Virus record (IMG/VR): IMGVR_UViG_3300010885_054974
Coordinates: 1,827 to 65,826 of that record
Source: a virus
Taxonomy: Duplodnaviria; Caudoviricetes
Direction: 5' to 3' (one strand)
DNA length: 64,000 bases
Shown here piece after piece: positions 51,490 to 57,953 of the stretch (positions within the stretch are counted from its first letter, which is position 1; each line of letters starts with the position of its first letter). The notes beneath the pieces are model-generated. The model was not told the DNA's origin, searched no databases, and saw only the letters and a list, made by a program, of their open reading frames with translations. Made by a program: the position numbers and the translations under genes.

Positions 51490-52366
51490 ACGCAAAGATA
51501 CCATTGTTGTTGCTTATCCACCTGGCGGGTATGGTACATTCTTAGAGTGGTGTTTGACTTATTTTACAGGGCAATTACCTGCTGGCCCAAATTCTTGGCC
51601 GTTTGTTGACAGCACCGGGTCTGCACATCGATTTAGAGGAAACCAAATCAAACAACCCAGCAAGTCTTTTCAAATACAATCGGGGTTACAAGATATAGGT
51701 ACATATCTGTTTGACCACGATAAAACTGTGTTGTTTGCTAGAACTCATGCAGATTTTCAAGACATGCAAGAGTACATCACTGCCTACCACACCTATATCA
51801 ATCGTTTTGTTTATATCCGACCAAACCCCAATACATTATTGTTGGTTCTAAACAACATTGTTGAAAAAACTCCCAACAATGAAATTACTCGGGCTTCTGT
51901 CAAGTATGTCAAACCAGACATGGATGCGTGGGAAATCAGGGAATCAATTTCTTTTTGGGTTGCTCAGTATCAAGACTACATGAACTCGTTTTACTCAGTG
52001 ACCAATCATTGTGTGATAGTTGACTTGCCTGATCTTATATCCAATTTGGGCTCATCACTGGATAAAATTTTTGTTGAAACAGGACTACATTGGAGTCAGG
52101 AGCACAAACAAGACATTGGTGTTGTAACAGAACAATGGCTGAGCTTGCAACGGCATTTGAACAAAGATACGGTGTGCCAAGCCATTGTTGACAGCATTAT
52201 CCATTCAACCGAGTATGATTGGCATGATCAAAATTTAACGGTTTATGATGAGGCATTTGTCCAATGGACATTAAGAGACTTGCATGGACTGGCCATGAAG
52301 TGCTATAATGTCAATGTGTTTCCTACGAATACAACCGATTTGAGAAATTTATTGACTAATGAGTAA
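51473..52366 (+). CDS. Hypothetical protein, possible sulfotransferase/P-loop-like fold
   Basis: N-terminal IVVAYPPGGYGTFL and ARTH; start taken at ATG 51473. Confidence 0.55.
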   Translation: MTETNKRKDTIVVAYPPGGYGTFLEWCLTYFTGQLPAGPNSWPFVDSTGSAHRFRGNQIKQPSKSFQIQSGLQDIGTYLFDHDKTVLFARTHADFQDMQEYITAYHTYINRFVYIRPNPNTLLLVLNNIVEKTPNNEITRASVKYVKPDMDAWEIRESISFWVAQYQDYMNSFYSVTNHCVIVDLPDLISNLGSSLDKIFVETGLHWSQEHKQDIGVVTEQWLSLQRHLNKDTVCQAIVDSIIHSTEYDWHDQNLTVYDEAFVQWTLRDLHGLAMKCYNVNVFPTNTTDLRNLLTNE

Positions 52367-53375
52367 CCTATTTCGGAAGGCTGCGGTCTTCACCGACATT
52401 CACTTTGGCTTGAAATCCAACAGCGCCAGTCACAATGATGACTGTTTGAATTTTGTTAAATGGGCCACTGCCAAAGCTCGTGAAGAGGGCTGTGAAACTG
52501 CTATGTTTCTGGGTGATTGGCACAACAATCGTGCAAACATCAACATTGTTACACTCAACTACAGTCTACGAGCCCTGGAGCACCTAAATGACAATTTTGA
52601 GCGTGTTTATTTTATCCCTGGAAATCACGATTTGTATTATCGTGATAAACGTGATATTCAATCGGTTGAATGGGCTCGTCACCTCCCGAATGTTCAAATT
52701 GTTAACGATTGGTTTTCTGATGGTGATGTGGTTATTGCTCCTTGGCTTGTCGGAGATGATCACAAACGAATTCCCCGACTTTCTGCCAAATACATGTTTG
52801 GGCACTTTGAGTTGCCAGGCTACTTGATGAATGCCATGGTGGCCATGCCCGAACACGGTGATGTACGCAGAGAACACTTTGGCGGCTTTGATCATGTGTT
52901 TACTGGACACTTTCACAAACGACAAACACAAAAGAACATTACCTATATTGGCAACTGCTTCCCGCACAACTATGCCGATGCCGGTGATGATGACCGAGGG
53001 CTAATGATCCTGGAATGGGGCAAGGAGCCGGTACACCATGCGTGGCCCAATCAACCCCGTTATCGTGTATTTCAGTTGAGTGATGTGCTTAGACACACCG
53101 AAGCCATGTTGCAACCCGGCATGCATTGTCGTGTTAATCTAGACATTGACATCAGTTATGAAGAAGCCACCTTTATCAAAGAAACTTTTATCGATCAATA
53201 CCAACTGAGAGAAATTACACTTATTCCTGCCAAGATAACTGACTTGACCGAATACGAAATACAGGGCAACATAGAGTTTGAAAGTGTTGATCAAATTGTC
53301 ACAGGACAACTCAGCAACATCGAAAGCGATAAGTTTAACAAGAACTTGCTACTAGACATATACAGGAATCTGTAA
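52359..53375 (+). CDS. Recombination endonuclease subunit, gp47 (Mre11/SbcD-like)
   Basis: DIHFG, LGDW, GNHD, FGHFE and GHFH phosphoesterase motifs. Confidence 0.92.
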   Translation: MSNLFRKAAVFTDIHFGLKSNSASHNDDCLNFVKWATAKAREEGCETAMFLGDWHNNRANINIVTLNYSLRALEHLNDNFERVYFIPGNHDLYYRDKRDIQSVEWARHLPNVQIVNDWFSDGDVVIAPWLVGDDHKRIPRLSAKYMFGHFELPGYLMNAMVAMPEHGDVRREHFGGFDHVFTGHFHKRQTQKNITYIGNCFPHNYADAGDDDRGLMILEWGKEPVHHAWPNQPRYRVFQLSDVLRHTEAMLQPGMHCRVNLDIDISYEEATFIKETFIDQYQLREITLIPAKITDLTEYEIQGNIEFESVDQIVTGQLSNIESDKFNKNLLLDIYRNL

Positions 53376-54217
53376 TGCACAAGTGGTTACAGGTAGAAGC
53401 CACAACCAAATGCAATGCTTGGTGTCCCGGATGTGGAAGAAGCAAGGGCGGGTATGAATTGGCCGATGGCTTGGTAATCGAAGATCTAGATGAAAACATT
53501 TTTGAACAGCATGTAAAATCAATGCCACATTTGGAAGTTGTTGATTTTTGCGGCACCTACGGCGATGCTGTTGCCGCACACAATATAAAAACCTTGGTAG
53601 AAATTGCAAAACGACATGTGCCAAAAGTCATAGTGAGAACCAACGGTAGTCTAAGAAATGATGTATGGTGGGCACAATTTGCCAATATTCTCAAAGGGCA
53701 TGATCACGAAGTGTGGTTCTGCTTAGATGGCCTAGCTGACACTCATGCCATTTATAGACAAGGTACAGATTTTGATACCATAATCAACAACGCAACGGTT
53801 TTTATAAATCAAGGCGGTGTTGCTGTTTGGCAGTTCATTCCGTGGAAGCACAACCAACATCAAATACTAAAATGCATCAAAATGAGTCAGGACCTGGGAT
53901 TCAGTCGATTTGAGTTTGTACGAAATGTTCGTAGAGATTTTAATGCTCGCGATTGGCGCACCGGCGAACCTTATGTGATAGATCCGTGGGAAGAGAATCT
54001 AAAATTTAGCAAGTATGAAAAAACTAATCATACTGTAACTGCCCAAGATTGTCGACATTTGTCACAGCCTAGTGTATACTTGAATGCCAATGGCAAGTTG
54101 AGCACCTGTTGCTTTTTTAACACCAGTTTGAGTTTTGATACGTTGAACCAATTACCAGACATTGCAAATGAATTATCCAATCCCAGACAGCAATGTCTTT
54201 ACCATTGTGGCAAATAA
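53375..54217 (+). CDS. Radical SAM protein with C-terminal Cys cluster
   Basis: CNAWCPGC, TNGS and LDGL; C-terminal C...CC...C...C. Confidence 0.85.
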   Translation: MHKWLQVEATTKCNAWCPGCGRSKGGYELADGLVIEDLDENIFEQHVKSMPHLEVVDFCGTYGDAVAAHNIKTLVEIAKRHVPKVIVRTNGSLRNDVWWAQFANILKGHDHEVWFCLDGLADTHAIYRQGTDFDTIINNATVFINQGGVAVWQFIPWKHNQHQILKCIKMSQDLGFSRFEFVRNVRRDFNARDWRTGEPYVIDPWEENLKFSKYEKTNHTVTAQDCRHLSQPSVYLNANGKLSTCCFFNTSLSFDTLNQLPDIANELSNPRQQCLYHCGK

Positions 54218-54220
54218 TAT

Positions 54221-55990
54221 ATGTTTAAAATAAAAGACTTAACTGTAAAAAACTTCATGAGTGTGGGCAATGCCACACAAGCGGTTAACTTTGATCGCAG
54301 AGACTTGACTTTGGTGTTGGGTGAAAACTTAGACCTAGGGGGCGATGACTCAGGAGCTCGTAACGGGACTGGGAAGACAACCATAATTAATGCTCTGTCC
54401 TATGCCCTTTACGGCAACGCCCTTACCAACATCAAAAAAGACAATCTAATCAACAAGACCAATACCAAAGGCATGATGGTCACAATTGATTTTGAAGTCA
54501 ATGGTGTTGACTATCGTATTGAGCGTGGTCGCAAACCTGGCATTATGAAATTCTGGATCAGCGGCAACGAAAAAGAAATCACAGACGATAGTCAAGGCGA
54601 TTCAAGAGAAACACAAGCAGAAATTGAGCGCATGTTGGGCATGAGTCACGACATGTTCAAACACATTGTGGCACTCAACACCTACACTGAACCGTTTCTA
54701 AGTTTGCGAGCCAACGATCAACGCACCATCATTGAACAGTTGTTGGGCATTACACTATTAAGTGAAAAAGCCGAACATCTCAAGGAACTGGGCAAAGCCA
54801 CCAAGGATGCCATCACAGCCGAAGAGTTTCGTATCAAGGCCGTAGGTGATGCTAACCGGCGTATCGAAGAACAGATTGAAAATCTGCGTAAGCGTCAGCG
54901 CATGTGGCTGGCAAAACACAACGAAGACATTACTCGGTTCCAGTCAGCATTTGACGAATTGAGTCGAATTGATATAGAAGCAGAACTGGCGGCACATCTT
55001 GCACTCACTGCTTACAACGACAAAGCCAAACAGATCAAAGAACTGTCGGCCTGGATCAAACGCTGTGAACTAGACCAGGCTAGAGAAACTAAAACTATTG
55101 AAAAATTAAAAGTCGACATTGCTAGTTTAGAGAATCACACTTGCCACAGTTGTGGCCAAGCATTCCATGACGACAAACAAGAAACCCTGTTAGAGGAAAA
55201 GCGGCGAGCATTGCAAGAAGCCGCATTAAATGCACTGGCATCCAATACACAATGGATGGAGCACACCGACGCACTACAGGCATTAGGCGAGTTGGGCGTA
55301 CAACCTGTTGTATTTTACGATCGCGAAAGTGATGCTTTTGAACATCGTAGTAGCATGGCCAGTATACTGGCACAGTTATCAGCCAAAGAAGCCGAAGCAG
55401 ATCCTTACAGTGAACAGATCCGAGAAATGAGCGAGCAGGCCCTGGAAGAAATTGATTTCAGCATAATGAATGAACTAGTTAATCTTAGAGAGCATCAAGA
55501 TTTCTTGTTGAAACTGTTGACCAACAAAGATTCGTTTATCCGCAAGCGCATCATTGATCAGAATCTAAGTTATCTAAATGCCCGCTTGGGGCAGTACTTG
55601 GATCGTATTGGATTGCCACATACTGTTAAATTCAACAATGACCTAACAGTGGCCATCACTGAACTGGGCAGGGATTTGGACTTTGACAACTTGAGCAGGG
55701 GTGAACGCAACAGACTGATCCTAAGTCTGAGTTGGGCATTCCGTGATGTTTGGGAAAGCCTATATCAGCCCATCAACTTGTTGTTCATTGACGAACTGGT
55801 TGATTCAGGCATGGACAGCTCGGGTGTAGAAAACAGCCTGGCTATTCTCAAGAAGATGAGCAGGGACAGCAACAAATCAATTTGGTTAGTGAGTCACAAG
55901 GATGAGCTTGCAGGGCGTGTGAACAACACCTTGCATGTGGTCAAAGAAAACGGATTTACCACCTACAACACCGATGTTGAGATGGTGTAA
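54221..55990 (+). CDS. Recombination ATPase subunit, gp46 (Rad50/SbcC-like)
   Basis: Walker A NGTGKTT, zinc hook CHSCGQ, signature LSRGE, Walker B LFIDE and SH. Confidence 0.93.
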   Translation: MFKIKDLTVKNFMSVGNATQAVNFDRRDLTLVLGENLDLGGDDSGARNGTGKTTIINALSYALYGNALTNIKKDNLINKTNTKGMMVTIDFEVNGVDYRIERGRKPGIMKFWISGNEKEITDDSQGDSRETQAEIERMLGMSHDMFKHIVALNTYTEPFLSLRANDQRTIIEQLLGITLLSEKAEHLKELGKATKDAITAEEFRIKAVGDANRRIEEQIENLRKRQRMWLAKHNEDITRFQSAFDELSRIDIEAELAAHLALTAYNDKAKQIKELSAWIKRCELDQARETKTIEKLKVDIASLENHTCHSCGQAFHDDKQETLLEEKRRALQEAALNALASNTQWMEHTDALQALGELGVQPVVFYDRESDAFEHRSSMASILAQLSAKEAEADPYSEQIREMSEQALEEIDFSIMNELVNLREHQDFLLKLLTNKDSFIRKRIIDQNLSYLNARLGQYLDRIGLPHTVKFNNDLTVAITELGRDLDFDNLSRGERNRLILSLSWAFRDVWESLYQPINLLFIDELVDSGMDSSGVENSLAILKKMSRDSNKSIWLVSHKDELAGRVNNTLHVVKENGFTTYNTDVEMV

Positions 55991-56041
55991 CACAATTTTA
56001 ATAATATTTAATCATGGCACACACAGGCATAATTACTATGC

Positions 56042-56473
56042 ATGACATGGACATATCAAGGTTTACCAGTTCAAGAATTACCCGAAGACTGCGTGGGCTT
56101 TGTCTACATCATCACGAATCTTGTATCAGGGCGCAAATACATAGGTAAAAAACTAGCGAGATTCGCAAAAACCACATACAAAGTAGTAAAACTCAAAAAC
56201 GGCACAAAAAAGAAAAAGAAGATCAGAAGCAAAATAGATTCTGACTGGCTCACATATTATGGCTCAAACGAAGAATTGAATCGAGATGTTACAGCATTAG
56301 GCTCAGACAAGTTTACACGAGAAATCATGTATTACTGTCGTTCAAAAGCCGAATGTAGTTATATCGAAGCAAGAGAACAATTTACACACAAAGTGCTAGA
56401 ATCACAAGAATACTACAACGGACAAATCTCTGTTCGTGTCCATGGCTCCCACATAAAGAAATTAAACGGTTAA
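56042..56473 (+). CDS. Small GIY-YIG (Seg-like) nuclease-family protein
   Basis: GFVYIITN..SGRKYIGKK, YYGS, F.REI, E and YYN; Lys-rich loop; no long C-terminal DNA-binding domain. Confidence 0.75.
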   Translation: MTWTYQGLPVQELPEDCVGFVYIITNLVSGRKYIGKKLARFAKTTYKVVKLKNGTKKKKKIRSKIDSDWLTYYGSNEELNRDVTALGSDKFTREIMYYCRSKAECSYIEAREQFTHKVLESQEYYNGQISVRVHGSHIKKLNG

Positions 56474-56884
56474 AGCTCGCGCAGGCTAACATCATGCGTC
56501 TAAGACAACAGGACCTCGGGTCGCTGGGACGGAAATCTCTCGCCGTTAAGAGTACTCAATCACTATCCTTGACAGGACGAAGATCGCCAAAGGCCGCGGT
56601 TTGATTGTTTGAAGAAAAATATAAGGCTAAAAAGACGCAGTAGTGATACTGCACGGTCGACAATTACGCTAGTATGTTATTGTTGATCCGCCGTTGTGAT
56701 AAAGACTGAACTCGAGGTACCGGACAACCGCCTCTGTAATGTTCTAATACTAGTGATCGTGCTACTCGGATGATGCTCTCTTTGCCCTGTGCGGGCAAAG
56801 TGTGACCGATTAATCTGGATGATACTAAAGTCAGAGAAACAGTGTTGTGAGCGCAAGCGAAACAACAGATCTCGTTAGAGATCT
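56474..56884 (+). ncRNA. Candidate structured non-coding RNA (~410 nt)
   Basis: Largest intergenic gap in the window; no credible ORF; many hairpins, with GNRA loops on the + strand. Confidence 0.55.
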
Positions 56885-57102
56885 TAGAAGAATGGCATTC
56901 CTGATTTCTTGGCAGTTTCTAAATTGTCTTTGACCAACTTGACTATGGTTTCACGCTCCGATGGGCTCATTTCCATGGCTTCTGTGTATGACACACTGCC
57001 TCGCATGTACCAACACAACTGCATTATTTCTCGTTTTAGGGCTTTTGAATCTCGTTCTAGGCTGTCTAGCCAAGCAATGACTTCCTCATTGTTGAGAATC
57101 AA
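56884..57102 (-). CDS. Baseplate hub assembly protein, gp51-like
   Basis: 72 aa following the gp26-like gene; SYTEAMEMSPSER. Confidence 0.6.
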   Translation of the reverse strand: MILNNEEVIAWLDSLERDSKALKREIMQLCWYMRGSVSYTEAMEMSPSERETIVKLVKDNLETAKKSGMPFF

Positions 57103-57953
57103 AAGCCTTTGTCGAAAAAATTTGATTGATTAAACTCCAGTCCTGATTCGTACTCGGTTGCACATTCTGAACAGGTCAGTTTCATTGGTGCCAATTTGTT
57201 TTCTTTTATCATGTCATCAATCTTTTCTTTGACCGCGGTATATGATTCTCTACTGCAATTTTCCAAGTACTCAGTGATAAACTTGCGATCTGTTACAGGT
57301 TCTTGACCTTCAATGGTGATGCTTTCAATGCATACAGCAATTGAATCCACATTCATCTGTTTGAGTTTGTTGAAACTTTCTGTAAACCGTGTGGCTTTCT
57401 CTTCATCAGTTAGAGCTTCGTTTCTTATAACGCTGTCCACTAGACGCTGTTCTTCATAAGTGATTATGTTCAAATCGTTTATATGCTTGTAGTTCTGTGG
57501 CTTAAAATTGAATTTTAAATCGTCAAAAAATGCTGGTTTGCTGTAGTCTGCAATTTTAAAATTATCCAGTAAATGATTTAAAGCAATATTGTGTTCATTG
57601 CTTTCACCGCATTCTTTACAAGCAGTGGTTATTTCCATTTCTGCACCGTAACTGGCCAATCTAATGGCAATCAACACAGCATCCACATCCACAGCAGGCA
57701 TGGTCCAAGCGTCCTTGATATTGGGACAACAGCTATGTATAACATCAATCATGCCCTGGCCGTTCATCAAGGCATCGGGCGTTTTTAGTGTCAATTCATC
57801 TTTGACTGTCATTGGGTAAATTGGAATTGTGCCAGTGGCAGGGAAATCCAGCGTGCCTTCAGGGTAGTATTGTCCCCCGCTGGGCAACTTTAAATACACA
57901 GCAGGCTGTCTAAAGTGTTTGAACAAAGGGTTACTAGCGGCGTTATTCACCAT
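57099..57953 (-). CDS. Baseplate hub subunit, gp26-like
   Basis: LPSGG.YY, MT.KDE, D.DA.LIAIR.ASYG and two CxxC pairs. Confidence 0.78.
   Translation of the reverse strand: MVNNAASNPLFKHFRQPAVYLKLPSGGQYYPEGTLDFPATGTIPIYPMTVKDELTLKTPDALMNGQGMIDVIHSCCPNIKDAWTMPAVDVDAVLIAIRLASYGAEMEITTACKECGESNEHNIALNHLLDNFKIADYSKPAFFDDLKFNFKPQNYKHINDLNIITYEEQRLVDSVIRNEALTDEEKATRFTESFNKLKQMNVDSIAVCIESITIEGQEPVTDRKFITEYLENCSRESYTAVKEKIDDMIKENKLAPMKLTCSECATEYESGLEFNQSNFFDKGF

What the first reader, a model, noticed from the sequence alone, without database searches (positions are those of the whole stretch)
56042..56884. Minimal GIY-YIG protein followed by a ~410-nt structured RNA: candidate ribonucleoprotein system
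Seen: in a genome with almost no intergenic space, the 143-aa nuclease gene is followed by 410 nt rich in stems. These include TCCT-tgac-AGGA (56566-56577), CAATCA/TGATTG (56557/56602), GCAGTA-gtga-TACTGC (56637-56652), TCGACAAT/ATTGTTGA (56657-56686), GAGG..CGG-acaa-CCG.CCTC (56714-56734), CTTTGCCC-tgtgc-GGGCAAAG (56780-56800) inside TCGG/CCGA, TGTTG..GC-gcaa-GC..CAACA (56843-56867), AGATCTC-gtta-GAGATCT (56867-56884) and a long-range TGCGTCT/AGACGCA (56495/56633). GNRA loops and G-U pairs favour a + strand RNA. The protein lacks the DNA-recognition extension of typical Seg homing enzymes but has a Lys-rich loop. Inference: a novel ncRNA, possibly the partner or guide scaffold of the nuclease, a ribozyme, or an origin-associated RNA.
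Basis: partly seen in the sequence, partly recalled or inferred. Interest (0 to 1): 0.85.

Follow-up and report, generated by a model that had tools for sequence, protein, structure and literature searches.

The report
Large twin-box RNA behind nuclease gene
The gene-free 410 bases behind a small nuclease gene of this uncultured T4-like lake phage encode a real, knotted non-coding RNA whose first third is a catalogued orphan motif; its job is unknown, and the nuclease looks like a fixed neighbour rather than its partner.

Summary
Window 56474-56884 (+) is a conserved, covarying structured RNA. Its first 137 nt (56474-56610) match Rfam RF01718, Polynucleobacter-1 RNA, at 103.9 bits (cut-off 37). 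The remaining ~270 nt match no Rfam family. They fold into five helices and two pseudoknots supported by compensatory changes. They also carry the same 7-nt word twice (GGATGAT at 56768 and 56817). The two words are identical in 87 of 92 phage relatives, across 10 alleles.

The nuclease-partner reading is not supported.
- All RNA-bearing phage loci share one synteny (gp47-gp46-GIY-RNA-gp26), so the 113 of 120 linkage is not independent evidence.
- Close GIY homologues exist without the RNA (7 of 73).
- The RNA exists without GIY: one phage has a PD-(D/E)XK nuclease instead, and 17 of 151 Polynucleobacter genomes carry it in islands beside DUF6641 and a short tyrosine recombinase.

Function remains unknown. 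My best guess is a stand-alone trans-acting RNA of mobile elements that reads something through its twin boxes.

This scan has reached the same reading on many other genomes. I found no description of the full-length RNA in print.

The parts
56042..56473 (+). Minimal GIY-YIG nuclease gene (143 aa, catalytic domain only). It is a conserved neighbour of the RNA, not shown to be part of it.
   Evidence: PF19835 E 4e-33, residues 3-129. phrog_447 E 1.2e-36. A homologue lies upstream on the same strand in 113 of 120 RNA loci.
56474..56610 (+). Domain 1 of the RNA: a full-length match to Rfam RF01718, Polynucleobacter-1 RNA.
   Evidence: 103.9 bits against a cut-off of 37, model positions 1-141 of 141. 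Helices covary (56481:56497, 56483:56495, 56585:56598, 56539:56550, 56560:56604).
56611..56636 (+). A-rich linker with a conserved AAGGC...AAAAAGA block.
   Evidence: Columns 56626 and 56631-56635 are 94-100% conserved in 94 unique sequences.
56637..56652 (+). Hairpin H1 (GUGA loop).
   Evidence: 4 of 4 pairs change on both sides (helix 1).
56657..56686 (+). Hairpin H2. Its loop (56669-56675) forms pseudoknot PK2 with 56747-56753.
   Evidence: MI pairs 56658:56685 to 56663:56680 and 56667:56676. PK2: 6 of 6 counted pairs change on both sides, 98% of cells paired (helix 3).
56694..56697 (+). 5' strand of pseudoknot PK1 (UUGU), pairing with the H4 loop ACAA at 56724-56727.
   Evidence: 56695:56726 TA56/CG36 and 56696:56725 GC59/AT26. 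98.3% of cells paired (helix 4).
56707..56745 (+). Helix H3 (56707-11 with 56741-45) enclosing hairpin H4 (56714-56734).
   Evidence: 56708:56744 GC40/CG29/TA9 is the top MI pair. In helix 5, 4 of 5 pairs change on both sides. 56715:56733 is AT/TA/GC.
56747..56753 (+). 3' strand of pseudoknot PK2.
   Evidence: 56673:56749 CG74/TA14 and 56674:56748 GC62/AT26.
56764..56776 (+). Repeat R1; box 1 is 56768-56774 (GGATGAT).
   Evidence: Identity covariation with R2 at 6 positions (56768:56817, 56769:56818, 56772:56821, 56774:56823, 56776:56825, 56763:56812). The boxes are identical in 87 of 92 relatives.
56780..56800 (+). Hairpin H5 between the two boxes.
   Evidence: 92.6% of cells paired. 56783:56797 is TA/AT/GU. 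G-U variants are present (helix 8).
56813..56825 (+). Repeat R2; box 2 is 56817-56823 (GGATGAT).
   Evidence: As for R1.
56843..56867 (+). Hairpin H6 with the conserved inner motif GAGCG-loop-GCGAAA.
   Evidence: The outer stem covaries (56848:56862 TA57/CG25). The same motif is present in the Polynucleobacter island copies.
56867..56884 (+). Terminal hairpin H7. It abuts the stop codon of the convergent 72-aa ORF (56884-57102, -). It is terminator-like for the minus strand, and in relatives a T-run follows it on the plus strand.
   Evidence: The scan lists it as a terminator-like site on the - strand. Relatives have different self-complementary letters followed by T-runs. Island copies have an equivalent hairpin.

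Best explanation
Window 56474-56884 is one stand-alone gene for a large, multi-domain, pseudoknotted non-coding RNA of about 400 nt, carried by mobile elements.

Domain 1 is the catalogued orphan motif Polynucleobacter-1 (RF01718). Domain 2 is uncatalogued and has helices H1-H5 and pseudoknots PK1 and PK2. It presents the same free-to-vary 7-nt word twice, on either side of hairpin H5, and is followed by a conserved GAGCG...GCGAAA hairpin and a terminal hairpin.

In this phage the RNA is made from the + strand at the end of the gp47-gp46-radical-SAM-GIY operon. It is transcribed either by read-through or from its own promoter (not determined).

Inferred, not shown: the RNA acts in trans, and the twin boxes are its specificity element. 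They would be read twice by one partner, probably a nucleic acid, that differs between lineages. The GIY-YIG gene is a conserved neighbour, not an obligate partner.
For: Shown:
- RF01718 full-length match at 103.9 bits.
- The whole of 56474-56870 is conserved in 94 unique relatives, and 105 of 120 loci align to 56611-56884.
- Domain-2 structure: 88.1% of cells paired against 75.5% in shuffles; covariation score 0.359 against 0.145; 0 of 500 shuffles reach it; slid controls 0.06-0.13.
- G-U 138 against A-C 30 favours the + strand.
- Twin boxes are identical in 87 of 92 phage relatives with 10 alleles. There are at least 30 allele changes on a tree built without the box columns, against 57-61 in the five printed of 200 label shuffles.
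- 13 of 18 Polynucleobacter island copies have identical boxes with other words.
- Independence from GIY, RNA without GIY: L011 has PF24608 PDDEXK_15 instead. Seven cellular RF01718 hits were found, four of them without GIY, gp46 or gp26. 17 of 151 Polynucleobacter genomes carry the RNA.
- Independence from GIY, GIY without RNA: 7 of 73 close homologues with at least 1.6 kb of flank, and 0 of 3 named phages.
- 0 of 5 large RNA-bearing phage records (3 at least 99% complete) hold DUF6641 or a tyrosine recombinase (positive control). No neighbouring protein is therefore common to all contexts.
- The island copies keep the architecture: PK1 with compensatory GAAAC:GUUUC, AAAAC:GUUUU and GAAGC:GCUUC; R1-hairpin-R2; the GAGCG...GCGAAA hairpin; and the terminal hairpin.
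Against: - No transcript ends or levels are known. Only Logan contigs of two metatranscriptome runs cover the GIY 3' end plus RF01718 and part of domain 2, and DNA may be present in such libraries.
- No partner of the boxes was found. There is no exact complement at any fixed place within up to about 10 kb in phage loci or 1.5 kb in island loci.
- My covariance model of phage domain 2 did not find the island copies at E up to 1 with default filters. Homology of the 3' parts therefore rests on shared architecture and short motifs that I read by eye.
- In most relatives, + strand genes start right after the RNA, which fits a leader role as well.
- In both contexts a small DNA enzyme sits nearby (GIY or PD-(D/E)XK upstream in phages, a short recombinase downstream in islands). 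This keeps an RNP reading alive.
Confidence: 0.7

Rival explanations
1. Ribonucleoprotein or guide reading. The RNA is the scaffold or guide of the adjacent catalytic-domain-only DNA enzyme: GIY-YIG or PD-(D/E)XK nuclease in phages, a short tyrosine recombinase in islands. The twin 7-nt boxes would specify the DNA site.
For: - The GIY protein has no DNA-binding extension (PF19835 covers residues 3-129 of 143).
- 113 of 120 RNA loci have it directly upstream.
- In L011 another small nuclease takes its place.
- In islands a 188-198-aa Phage_integrase-domain protein lies downstream in 16 of 24 loci. Of the other 8, 4 have under 250 nt of flank and 1 has it 1.6 kb away.
- The boxes vary fast and in concert, as guides do.
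Against: - All phage loci are one syntenic block, so the linkage is inherited rather than repeated.
- 8 loci have other genes between GIY and the RNA.
- GIY homologues of 72-77% identity sit in another context without the RNA (6 loci), and one T4-like locus lacks it.
- Cyanophage, Melnitz-3 and phiM12 homologues have no RNA.
- Three complete RNA-bearing phage genomes have no recombinase or DUF6641.
- No match of the boxes to flanking DNA was found.
Confidence: 0.07
2. Cis-acting leader or 3' UTR element. The RNA regulates the + strand genes that follow it (the 2010 catalogue marks the motif as probably cis-regulatory), or it stabilises or terminates the upstream operon's mRNA.
For: - The table in PMC2864571 marks Polynucleobacter-1 'y' for cis-regulatory (passage seen).
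- In 14 of the 16 phage loci I inspected, variable + strand genes start about 300-475 nt after the start of the RF01718 core motif (window 56526), that is, just past the RNA.
- In islands the recombinase gene follows in the same direction.
- Metatranscriptome contigs bridge the GIY 3' end and the RNA.
Against: - In this window and in loci such as L005, L009, L012, L020 and L023, the next gene is convergent. Nothing lies downstream to regulate.
- A terminal hairpin with a T-run in relatives separates the RNA from downstream genes.
- About 400 nt with two pseudoknots and fast-changing twin boxes is far more than a terminator or stabiliser needs (inference).
Confidence: 0.12
3. Landing-pad reading. 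The RNA gene is a conserved target next to which free-standing homing-type nuclease genes settle. The GIY gene would be a selfish neighbour that cuts RNA-gene alleles lacking it.
For: - Two unrelated small nuclease families occupy the same slot directly upstream of the RNA: GIY in 113 loci, PDDEXK_15 in L011.
- phrog_7363 'homing endonuclease' is the protein's second hit.
- In islands the RNA sits among integrase genes.
Against: - The GIY gene is nearly always present, and it is better conserved (55-91% identity) than gp46 or gp47 (50-66% in most loci) or gp26 (about 30-48%). That is unlike a sporadic selfish gene.
- The family is also a fixed gene of cyanophages: 496 phage records match, 339 of them from Synechococcus phages.
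- It lacks the DNA-binding domain of Seg enzymes (Seg lengths are recalled).
Confidence: 0.06
4. DNA-level element. The twin repeats would be iteron-like or recombination-core sites of an origin or site-specific recombination locus, and the RNA folds would be incidental.
For: - Direct repeats kept identical are typical of iterons and of crossover cores (recalled).
- Recombinase genes are neighbours in islands.
Against: - Strand-asymmetric G-U against A-C counts (138 against 30) and compensatory changes in helices and two pseudoknots argue for selection on an RNA.
- The hairpin between the boxes tolerates G-U pairs and loop-length changes.
- Phages that keep the boxes identical have no recombinase.
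Confidence: 0.05

Closest known systems
Polynucleobacter-1 RNA motif (Rfam RF01718; Weinberg et al. 2010, Genome Biol 11:R31, PMC2864571; I saw the table row and passages only)
   Same: Window 56474-56610 matches the whole 141-position model at 103.9 bits. The helices and invariant junction bases are the same. The habitat fits (fresh water, Burkholderiales).
   Different: The catalogued motif is only the first third. The RNA here continues for about 270 nt with five more helices, two pseudoknots, twin 7-nt boxes and two 3' hairpins that match no Rfam family. The catalogue lists bacteria and fresh water, whereas at least 120 viral contigs carry it. In this window it is not a 5' UTR.
Large ornate bacterial and phage ncRNAs of unknown function (GOLLD, ROOL, HEARO class; named from recall)
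   Same: Hundreds of nucleotides, many helices and pseudoknots, carried by phages and mobile elements, function not obvious from context.
   Different: No Rfam model of those families matches here. None is known to me to carry two identical co-varying short words (recall).
Guide RNAs of mobile-element enzymes: TnpB/IscB omega RNAs and IS110 bridge RNAs (recalled; the review PMC13565253 was seen in a search listing only)
   Same: A structured RNA encoded next to a small DNA enzyme of a mobile element, with short fast-changing segments.
   Different: The neighbouring enzymes are GIY-YIG, PD-(D/E)XK or a tyrosine recombinase. Linkage is not obligate in either direction. The two variable segments are identical to each other. 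No match to flanking DNA was found.
T4 Seg-type free-standing GIY-YIG homing endonucleases (comparison for the protein)
   Same: The GIY-YIG catalytic domain is of the SegE type (PF19835), in a T4-like genome between conserved genes.
   Different: It has only 143 aa and no DNA-binding C-terminal part (Seg lengths of about 200-220 aa are recalled). It is conserved rather than sporadic and belongs to phrog_447, a roughly 148-aa family found in 496 phage records.

Membership tests
Rfam RF01718 Polynucleobacter-1 RNA | Covariance-model score at or above the curated gathering score (37 bits) | tested here: met
   103.9 bits, E 2.1e-21 over the whole window.
Rfam RF01718 Polynucleobacter-1 RNA | Full-length match to the model, with its helices kept by compensatory changes in relatives | tested here: met
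   Model positions 1-141 of 141. MI pairs with 100% standard pairing: 56481:56497, 56483:56495, 56585:56598.
Rfam RF01718 Polynucleobacter-1 RNA | Location in the 5' UTR of a protein-coding gene (the catalogue's 'cis-regulatory: y') | tested here: not met
   The next gene in the window is convergent (56884-57102, -). This is a context note of the catalogue, not a defining structural feature.
Guide RNA of an RNA-guided mobile-element nuclease (OMEGA-like) | Obligate co-occurrence of the RNA and its effector gene | tested here: not met
   RNA without GIY: L011, and 17 of 151 Polynucleobacter genomes. GIY without RNA: 7 of 73 close homologues and 0 of 3 named phages.
Guide RNA of an RNA-guided mobile-element nuclease (OMEGA-like) | A variable segment that matches DNA at or beside the element | tested here: inconclusive
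   No exact complement or copy of the box lies at a fixed place in 87 phage loci or 18 island loci. Seven letters are too few for a genome-wide search.
Seg-type GIY-YIG homing endonuclease (the protein) | GIY-YIG catalytic domain | tested here: met
   PF19835, E 4e-33.
Seg-type GIY-YIG homing endonuclease (the protein) | C-terminal DNA-binding region | tested here: not met
   143 aa. The domain covers residues 3-129 and there is no second Pfam hit.
Seg-type GIY-YIG homing endonuclease (the protein) | Sporadic presence among close relatives | tested here: not met
   Present in 113 of 120 RNA loci, and in most loci more conserved than gp46 or gp47.
Intrinsic terminator (terminal hairpin 56867-56884) | G+C-rich hairpin followed by a T-run on the transcribed strand | tested here: inconclusive
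   The scan lists it for the - strand only. On the + strand the window has no T-run, while several relatives do.

The most novel reading that the evidence does not exclude
The twin 7-nt boxes are programmable specificity words of a new kind of mobile-element RNA. The RNA would recruit small catalytic-domain-only DNA enzymes (a short tyrosine recombinase in Polynucleobacter islands, GIY-YIG or PD-(D/E)XK nucleases in T4-like phages) to two identical 7-bp DNA cores. It would be an RNA-guided recombinase or nuclease unrelated to CRISPR, OMEGA or bridge RNAs.
Probability: 0.05. Interest if true: 0.95.

Novelty: new variant of a known kind. Interest (0 to 1): 0.55.

Why it matters
RNAs of about 400 nt with several pseudoknots are rare in bacteria and phages, and those whose function is known turned out to be machines (recalled). 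This one is common:
- 66 of the 80 best GIY loci carry it;
- 17 of 151 Polynucleobacter genomes carry it.

It crosses from lytic T4-like phages to integrative islands, and only its first third is catalogued. Two short words that stay identical while changing at least 30 times in 88 sequences point to a specificity code with an unknown reader.

For this window the practical result is negative. The data do not support a GIY-YIG ribonucleoprotein.

Tried and rejected
- A blastn search of 56474-56884 against named phage records found nothing.
- Single-sequence folding gave only weak z-scores.
- RNAalifold on the raw MAFFT alignment of the whole region recovered only part of the structure. I replaced it by mutual information and a hand-written structure.
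- Partner of the boxes:
  - The reverse complement of box 1 with its flank occurs in the window no more often than chance: 29 matches with up to 2 mismatches against 35.6 expected.
  - A search allowing G-U found only the U-rich 3' end of RF01718 (34 of 93). That segment tolerates purine changes but does not covary with the boxes, so I rejected it.
  - Exact complements showed no fixed place.
  - Box words in three 14-kb Polynucleobacter regions were uninformative because the words are A-rich.
- Expression:
  - Only Logan contigs were available.
  - RNA-library contigs cover 56021-56613 (X17) and 56124-56739 (X19).
  - X17 has no cover beyond 56616. That absence is not evidence, and DNA may be present in such libraries.
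- The 15-mer taken from an island copy gave 75 viral and 118 metagenome stretches. None has an RF01718 core upstream, so all are chance matches.
- A pattern specific to the island-type domain 1 found nothing in viral contigs.
- My model of phage domain 2 did not reach the island copies.
- No tRNA gene lies in the three island regions or in the window.
- A self-comparison of a genome with two copies showed similarity confined to the RNA, an integrase and short repeats. It did not give element ends.
- A PDB sequence search with the GIY protein gave nothing significant (best E 0.33).
- The variable proteins downstream of the RNA in relatives have no PHROG family.
- A minus-strand coding reading was rejected because relatives use different frames.
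- Not run: structure prediction and complex prediction. The complex tool does not take RNA.
Full report
**What is in the window**

The window is 64,000 bases of a 65.8-kb IMG/VR virus record that CheckV rates 19% complete. The genes around the finding are those of a T4-like myovirus:
- a calcineurin-type phosphoesterase (gp47-like, 52359-53375);
- a radical-SAM-like ORF (53375-54217);
- an SMC/AAA_23 protein (gp46-like, 54221-55990);
- the 143-aa GIY-YIG ORF (56042-56473; PF19835, E 4e-33);
- on the other strand, a 72-aa ORF (56884-57102) and a T4_baseplate protein (57099-57953).

The 410 bases between the GIY stop codon and the convergent 72-aa ORF hold no + strand ORF of 30 aa or more beyond 56604. 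The window holds no tRNA.

**The observation**

Rfam's curated search gives one hit in the whole window: RF01718, Polynucleobacter-1 RNA, at 56474-56610 on the + strand. The score is 103.9 bits against a cut-off of 37 and the match covers the entire model. The hit starts at the base after the GIY stop codon. The other 270 bases match nothing, even at E up to 10.

Folding energies alone are unimpressive (z between -1.6 and -2.4). The case therefore rests on relatives.

- 105 of them align to 56611-56884 as well, at a fixed distance.
- In 94 unique sequences the conservation runs from 56474 to about 56870.

Mutual information on that alignment recovers the RF01718 helices. Beyond them it finds:
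- hairpins at 56637-52, 56657-86, 56714-34, 56780-800 and 56843-67;
- a helix 56707-11/56741-45;
- two pseudoknots: UUGU 56694-97 with the ACAA loop 56724-27, and loop 56669-75 with 56747-53.

I counted this structure on a second alignment of 59 sequences.
- 88.1% of cells are paired, against 75.5% in shuffles.
- The covariation score is 0.359 against 0.145. None of 500 shuffles reaches it, and versions slid by 1-3 columns score 0.06-0.13.
- Both pseudoknots are about 98% paired, with changes on both sides in 6 of 6 and 3 of 4 pairs.
- G-U outnumbers A-C by 138 to 30, so the + strand is the RNA.
- Minus-strand open frames exist, but relatives use different frames across the same conserved bases.

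The long-range 56495/56633 pairing and the TCGG/CCGA pairing do not.

**The twin boxes**

The strongest non-Watson-Crick signal is identity covariation between two direct repeats 49 nt apart, 56764-76 and 56813-25. Their 7-nt cores are both GGATGAT here.
- The cores are identical to each other in 87 of 92 phage relatives, although ten different words occur.
- On a tree of the RNA built without those columns, the word changes at least 30 times among 88 labelled rows. The five printed of 200 label shuffles gave 57-61. Recombination between phages may account for part of that count.
- I found no complementary partner in cis.

**Is the nuclease the RNA's partner?**

At first sight yes. 113 of the 120 loci have a homologue of the GIY protein upstream on the same strand. 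Five of the other seven are cut off by the contig end, and one is a chance match.

But every locus has the same gene order, gp47-gp46-(radical SAM)-GIY-RNA-(0-3 variable genes)-72-aa ORF-gp26. The linkage is therefore one inherited arrangement, not many independent ones. Four further results separate the two.
1. In eight loci one or two other + strand genes lie between GIY and the RNA. The RNA then abuts the last of them.
2. In L011 the slot is filled by a PD-(D/E)XK phage endonuclease (PF24608, E 2.5e-29) and there is no GIY.
3. Starting from the protein instead of the RNA, 66 of the 80 best homologues (69-91% identity) have domain 2 downstream. Seven have under 240 nt of flank. Seven with at least 1.6 kb have neither domain 2 nor RF01718. 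Six of those seven sit in a different gene context, where the GIY gene overlaps a 287-400-aa ORF beginning with a long hydrophobic stretch.
4. The family is a fixed gene of cyanophages and others (496 phage records, all under 60% identity). The homologues in Melnitz-3, P-SSM2 and phiM12 have no RF01718.

**The RNA without the nuclease**

The same core pattern in one genome per species gave 33 stretches. I scanned 14 of them with Rfam and 7 are true RF01718.
- Three are short phage-like MAG contigs with GIY.
- Four lie in Burkholderiales MAGs without GIY, gp46 or gp26.

The motif was found in 1 of 151 genomes sampled from the family of one of these. In the genus of the Polynucleobacter MAG it was above cut-off in 17 of 151, on chromosomes and sometimes twice.

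There the neighbours are different but equally constant.
- A DUF6641 gene lies divergently upstream in 23 of 24 loci.
- A 188-198-aa protein that is essentially a Phage_integrase catalytic domain lies downstream on the RNA's strand in 16 of 24. Of the other eight, four have under 250 nt of flank and one has it 1.6 kb away.
- Full-size integrases and methyltransferase-like genes lie nearby, so these are genomic islands.

The island RNAs keep the plan of the phage RNA.
- The loop-strand pseudoknot PK1 shows compensatory variants.
- A 7-bp loop-strand pairing sits at the place of PK2.
- The order R1-hairpin-R2 is kept, with other words (AGCGAAA, AGAGAAA, GGAGAAA, ATCAAAA, AACAAAA). The two boxes are identical in 13 of 18 copies.
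- The GAGCG...GCGAAA hairpin and a terminal hairpin are present.

My covariance model of phage domain 2 found the divergent phage subfamily (21-59 bits) but not these island copies. The homology of the 3' parts is therefore my reading of architecture, not a scored match.

Conversely, five large phage records that carry the RNA, three of them at least 99% complete, contain neither DUF6641 nor any Phage_integrase domain. The DUF6641 search does detect the family where it is known. No protein neighbour is thus common to all contexts.

**What it most likely is**

It is a stand-alone, complex-folded RNA gene of mobile elements. Its 5' domain was catalogued in 2010 as an orphan motif from Burkholderiales and fresh water (PMC2864571; I saw the table row and passages only).

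That it works in trans, and that the twin boxes are a specificity element read twice by one partner, is inference. It rests on three things:
- the independence from every neighbour;
- the terminal hairpin;
- the concerted and combinatorial variation of the boxes. Positions 1, 2, 5 and 7 vary separately, which looks more like nucleic-acid reading than protein reading.

Expression evidence is weak. Contigs of two metatranscriptome runs cover the GIY 3' end, RF01718 and part of domain 2, but such libraries can hold DNA.

**Comparison and novelty**

The instance is a member of RF01718. The full-length form, the pseudoknots, the twin boxes, the phage habitat and the island module are not in Rfam 15. 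They are also not in the papers my searches reached:
- 'Polynucleobacter-1': one paper;
- 'GIY-YIG' with 'structured RNA' and 'phage': eight papers, none relevant by title or abstract;
- 'tyrosine recombinase' with 'RNA-guided' and 'ncRNA': four papers, none relevant;
- 'DUF6641': none.

Subscription journals and the 2010 paper's additional files were not visible to me.

This scan itself has met the same RNA on many other genomes, and its follow-up agents reached the same 'twin-box Polynucleobacter-1 RNA, nuclease a neighbour' reading. I arrived at it before reading those notes, and they add no independent evidence.

**Verdict**

- Observation: confirmed.
- Interpretation: partly supported. 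It is a real RNA, partly known, and not shown to be a nuclease partner.
- Interest: moderate. This is a large orphan RNA with an unexplained specificity code, but not the ribonucleoprotein system proposed.

Noticed in passing
Loci L378 (4950-7915), L379 (6184-8196), L380 (6693-9100), L155 (5335-7761): Polynucleobacter and Limnohabitans genomic islands hold a constant module. A DUF6641 gene lies divergent to the RNA. The RNA is followed by a variable 0.3-1 kb stretch and then a 188-198-aa tyrosine recombinase that lacks the usual N-terminal domain. Full-size integrases and C5-methyltransferase-like ORFs lie nearby.
   Followed up: partly
Loci L004, L006, L007, L014, L026, L034, L050, L104, L107, L120 (about 400-3800 nt after the RF01718 core): Between the RNA and the convergent 72-aa ORF, relatives carry 0-3 highly variable + strand genes. 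Their products begin with a shared motif (M-K/R-I-N/T-E-L/I-L...E) and have no PHROG family. The shared start recalls the capsid-targeting start of T4 internal proteins (recalled, not tested).
   Followed up: partly
Locus L011 3963-4481: In one T4-like relative the GIY-YIG gene upstream of the RNA is replaced by a PD-(D/E)XK phage endonuclease (PF24608, E 2.5e-29).
   Followed up: partly
Window 56566 and 56578 (also 56573): Non-Watson-Crick covariation inside RF01718. U...C (49 sequences) alternates with C...U (44), together with a change of loop type (UUGACA against GAAA). This suggests two structural subtypes of that hairpin.
   Followed up: no
Phage records (for example NC_027204.1, GU071097.1, NC_011811.1): The minimal GIY-YIG family (phrog_447) is annotated 'NAD synthetase' in many deposited phage genomes. 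The Pfam hit is a GIY-YIG nuclease domain, so the annotation looks wrong.
   Followed up: no
Window 53375-54217: A radical-SAM-like ORF (phrog_21308, E 4.6e-19; no Pfam hit at 0.01) sits between the gp47-like and gp46-like genes. In relatives this slot holds variable radical-SAM-like ORFs of 280-525 aa.
   Followed up: no
Loci L005, L055, L071, L058, L048, L022, L098, L108 (alignment A1 columns 330-385, equivalent to window 56738): Some relatives carry a 20-55-nt extra hairpin, or tandem TATAG-type repeats, inserted at one point of domain 2 between H4 and the 3' strand of H3.
   Followed up: no
Genome G257: One Polynucleobacter genome has three DUF6641 genes but only one RF01718 hit. DUF6641 is therefore not always next to the RNA.
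   Followed up: no
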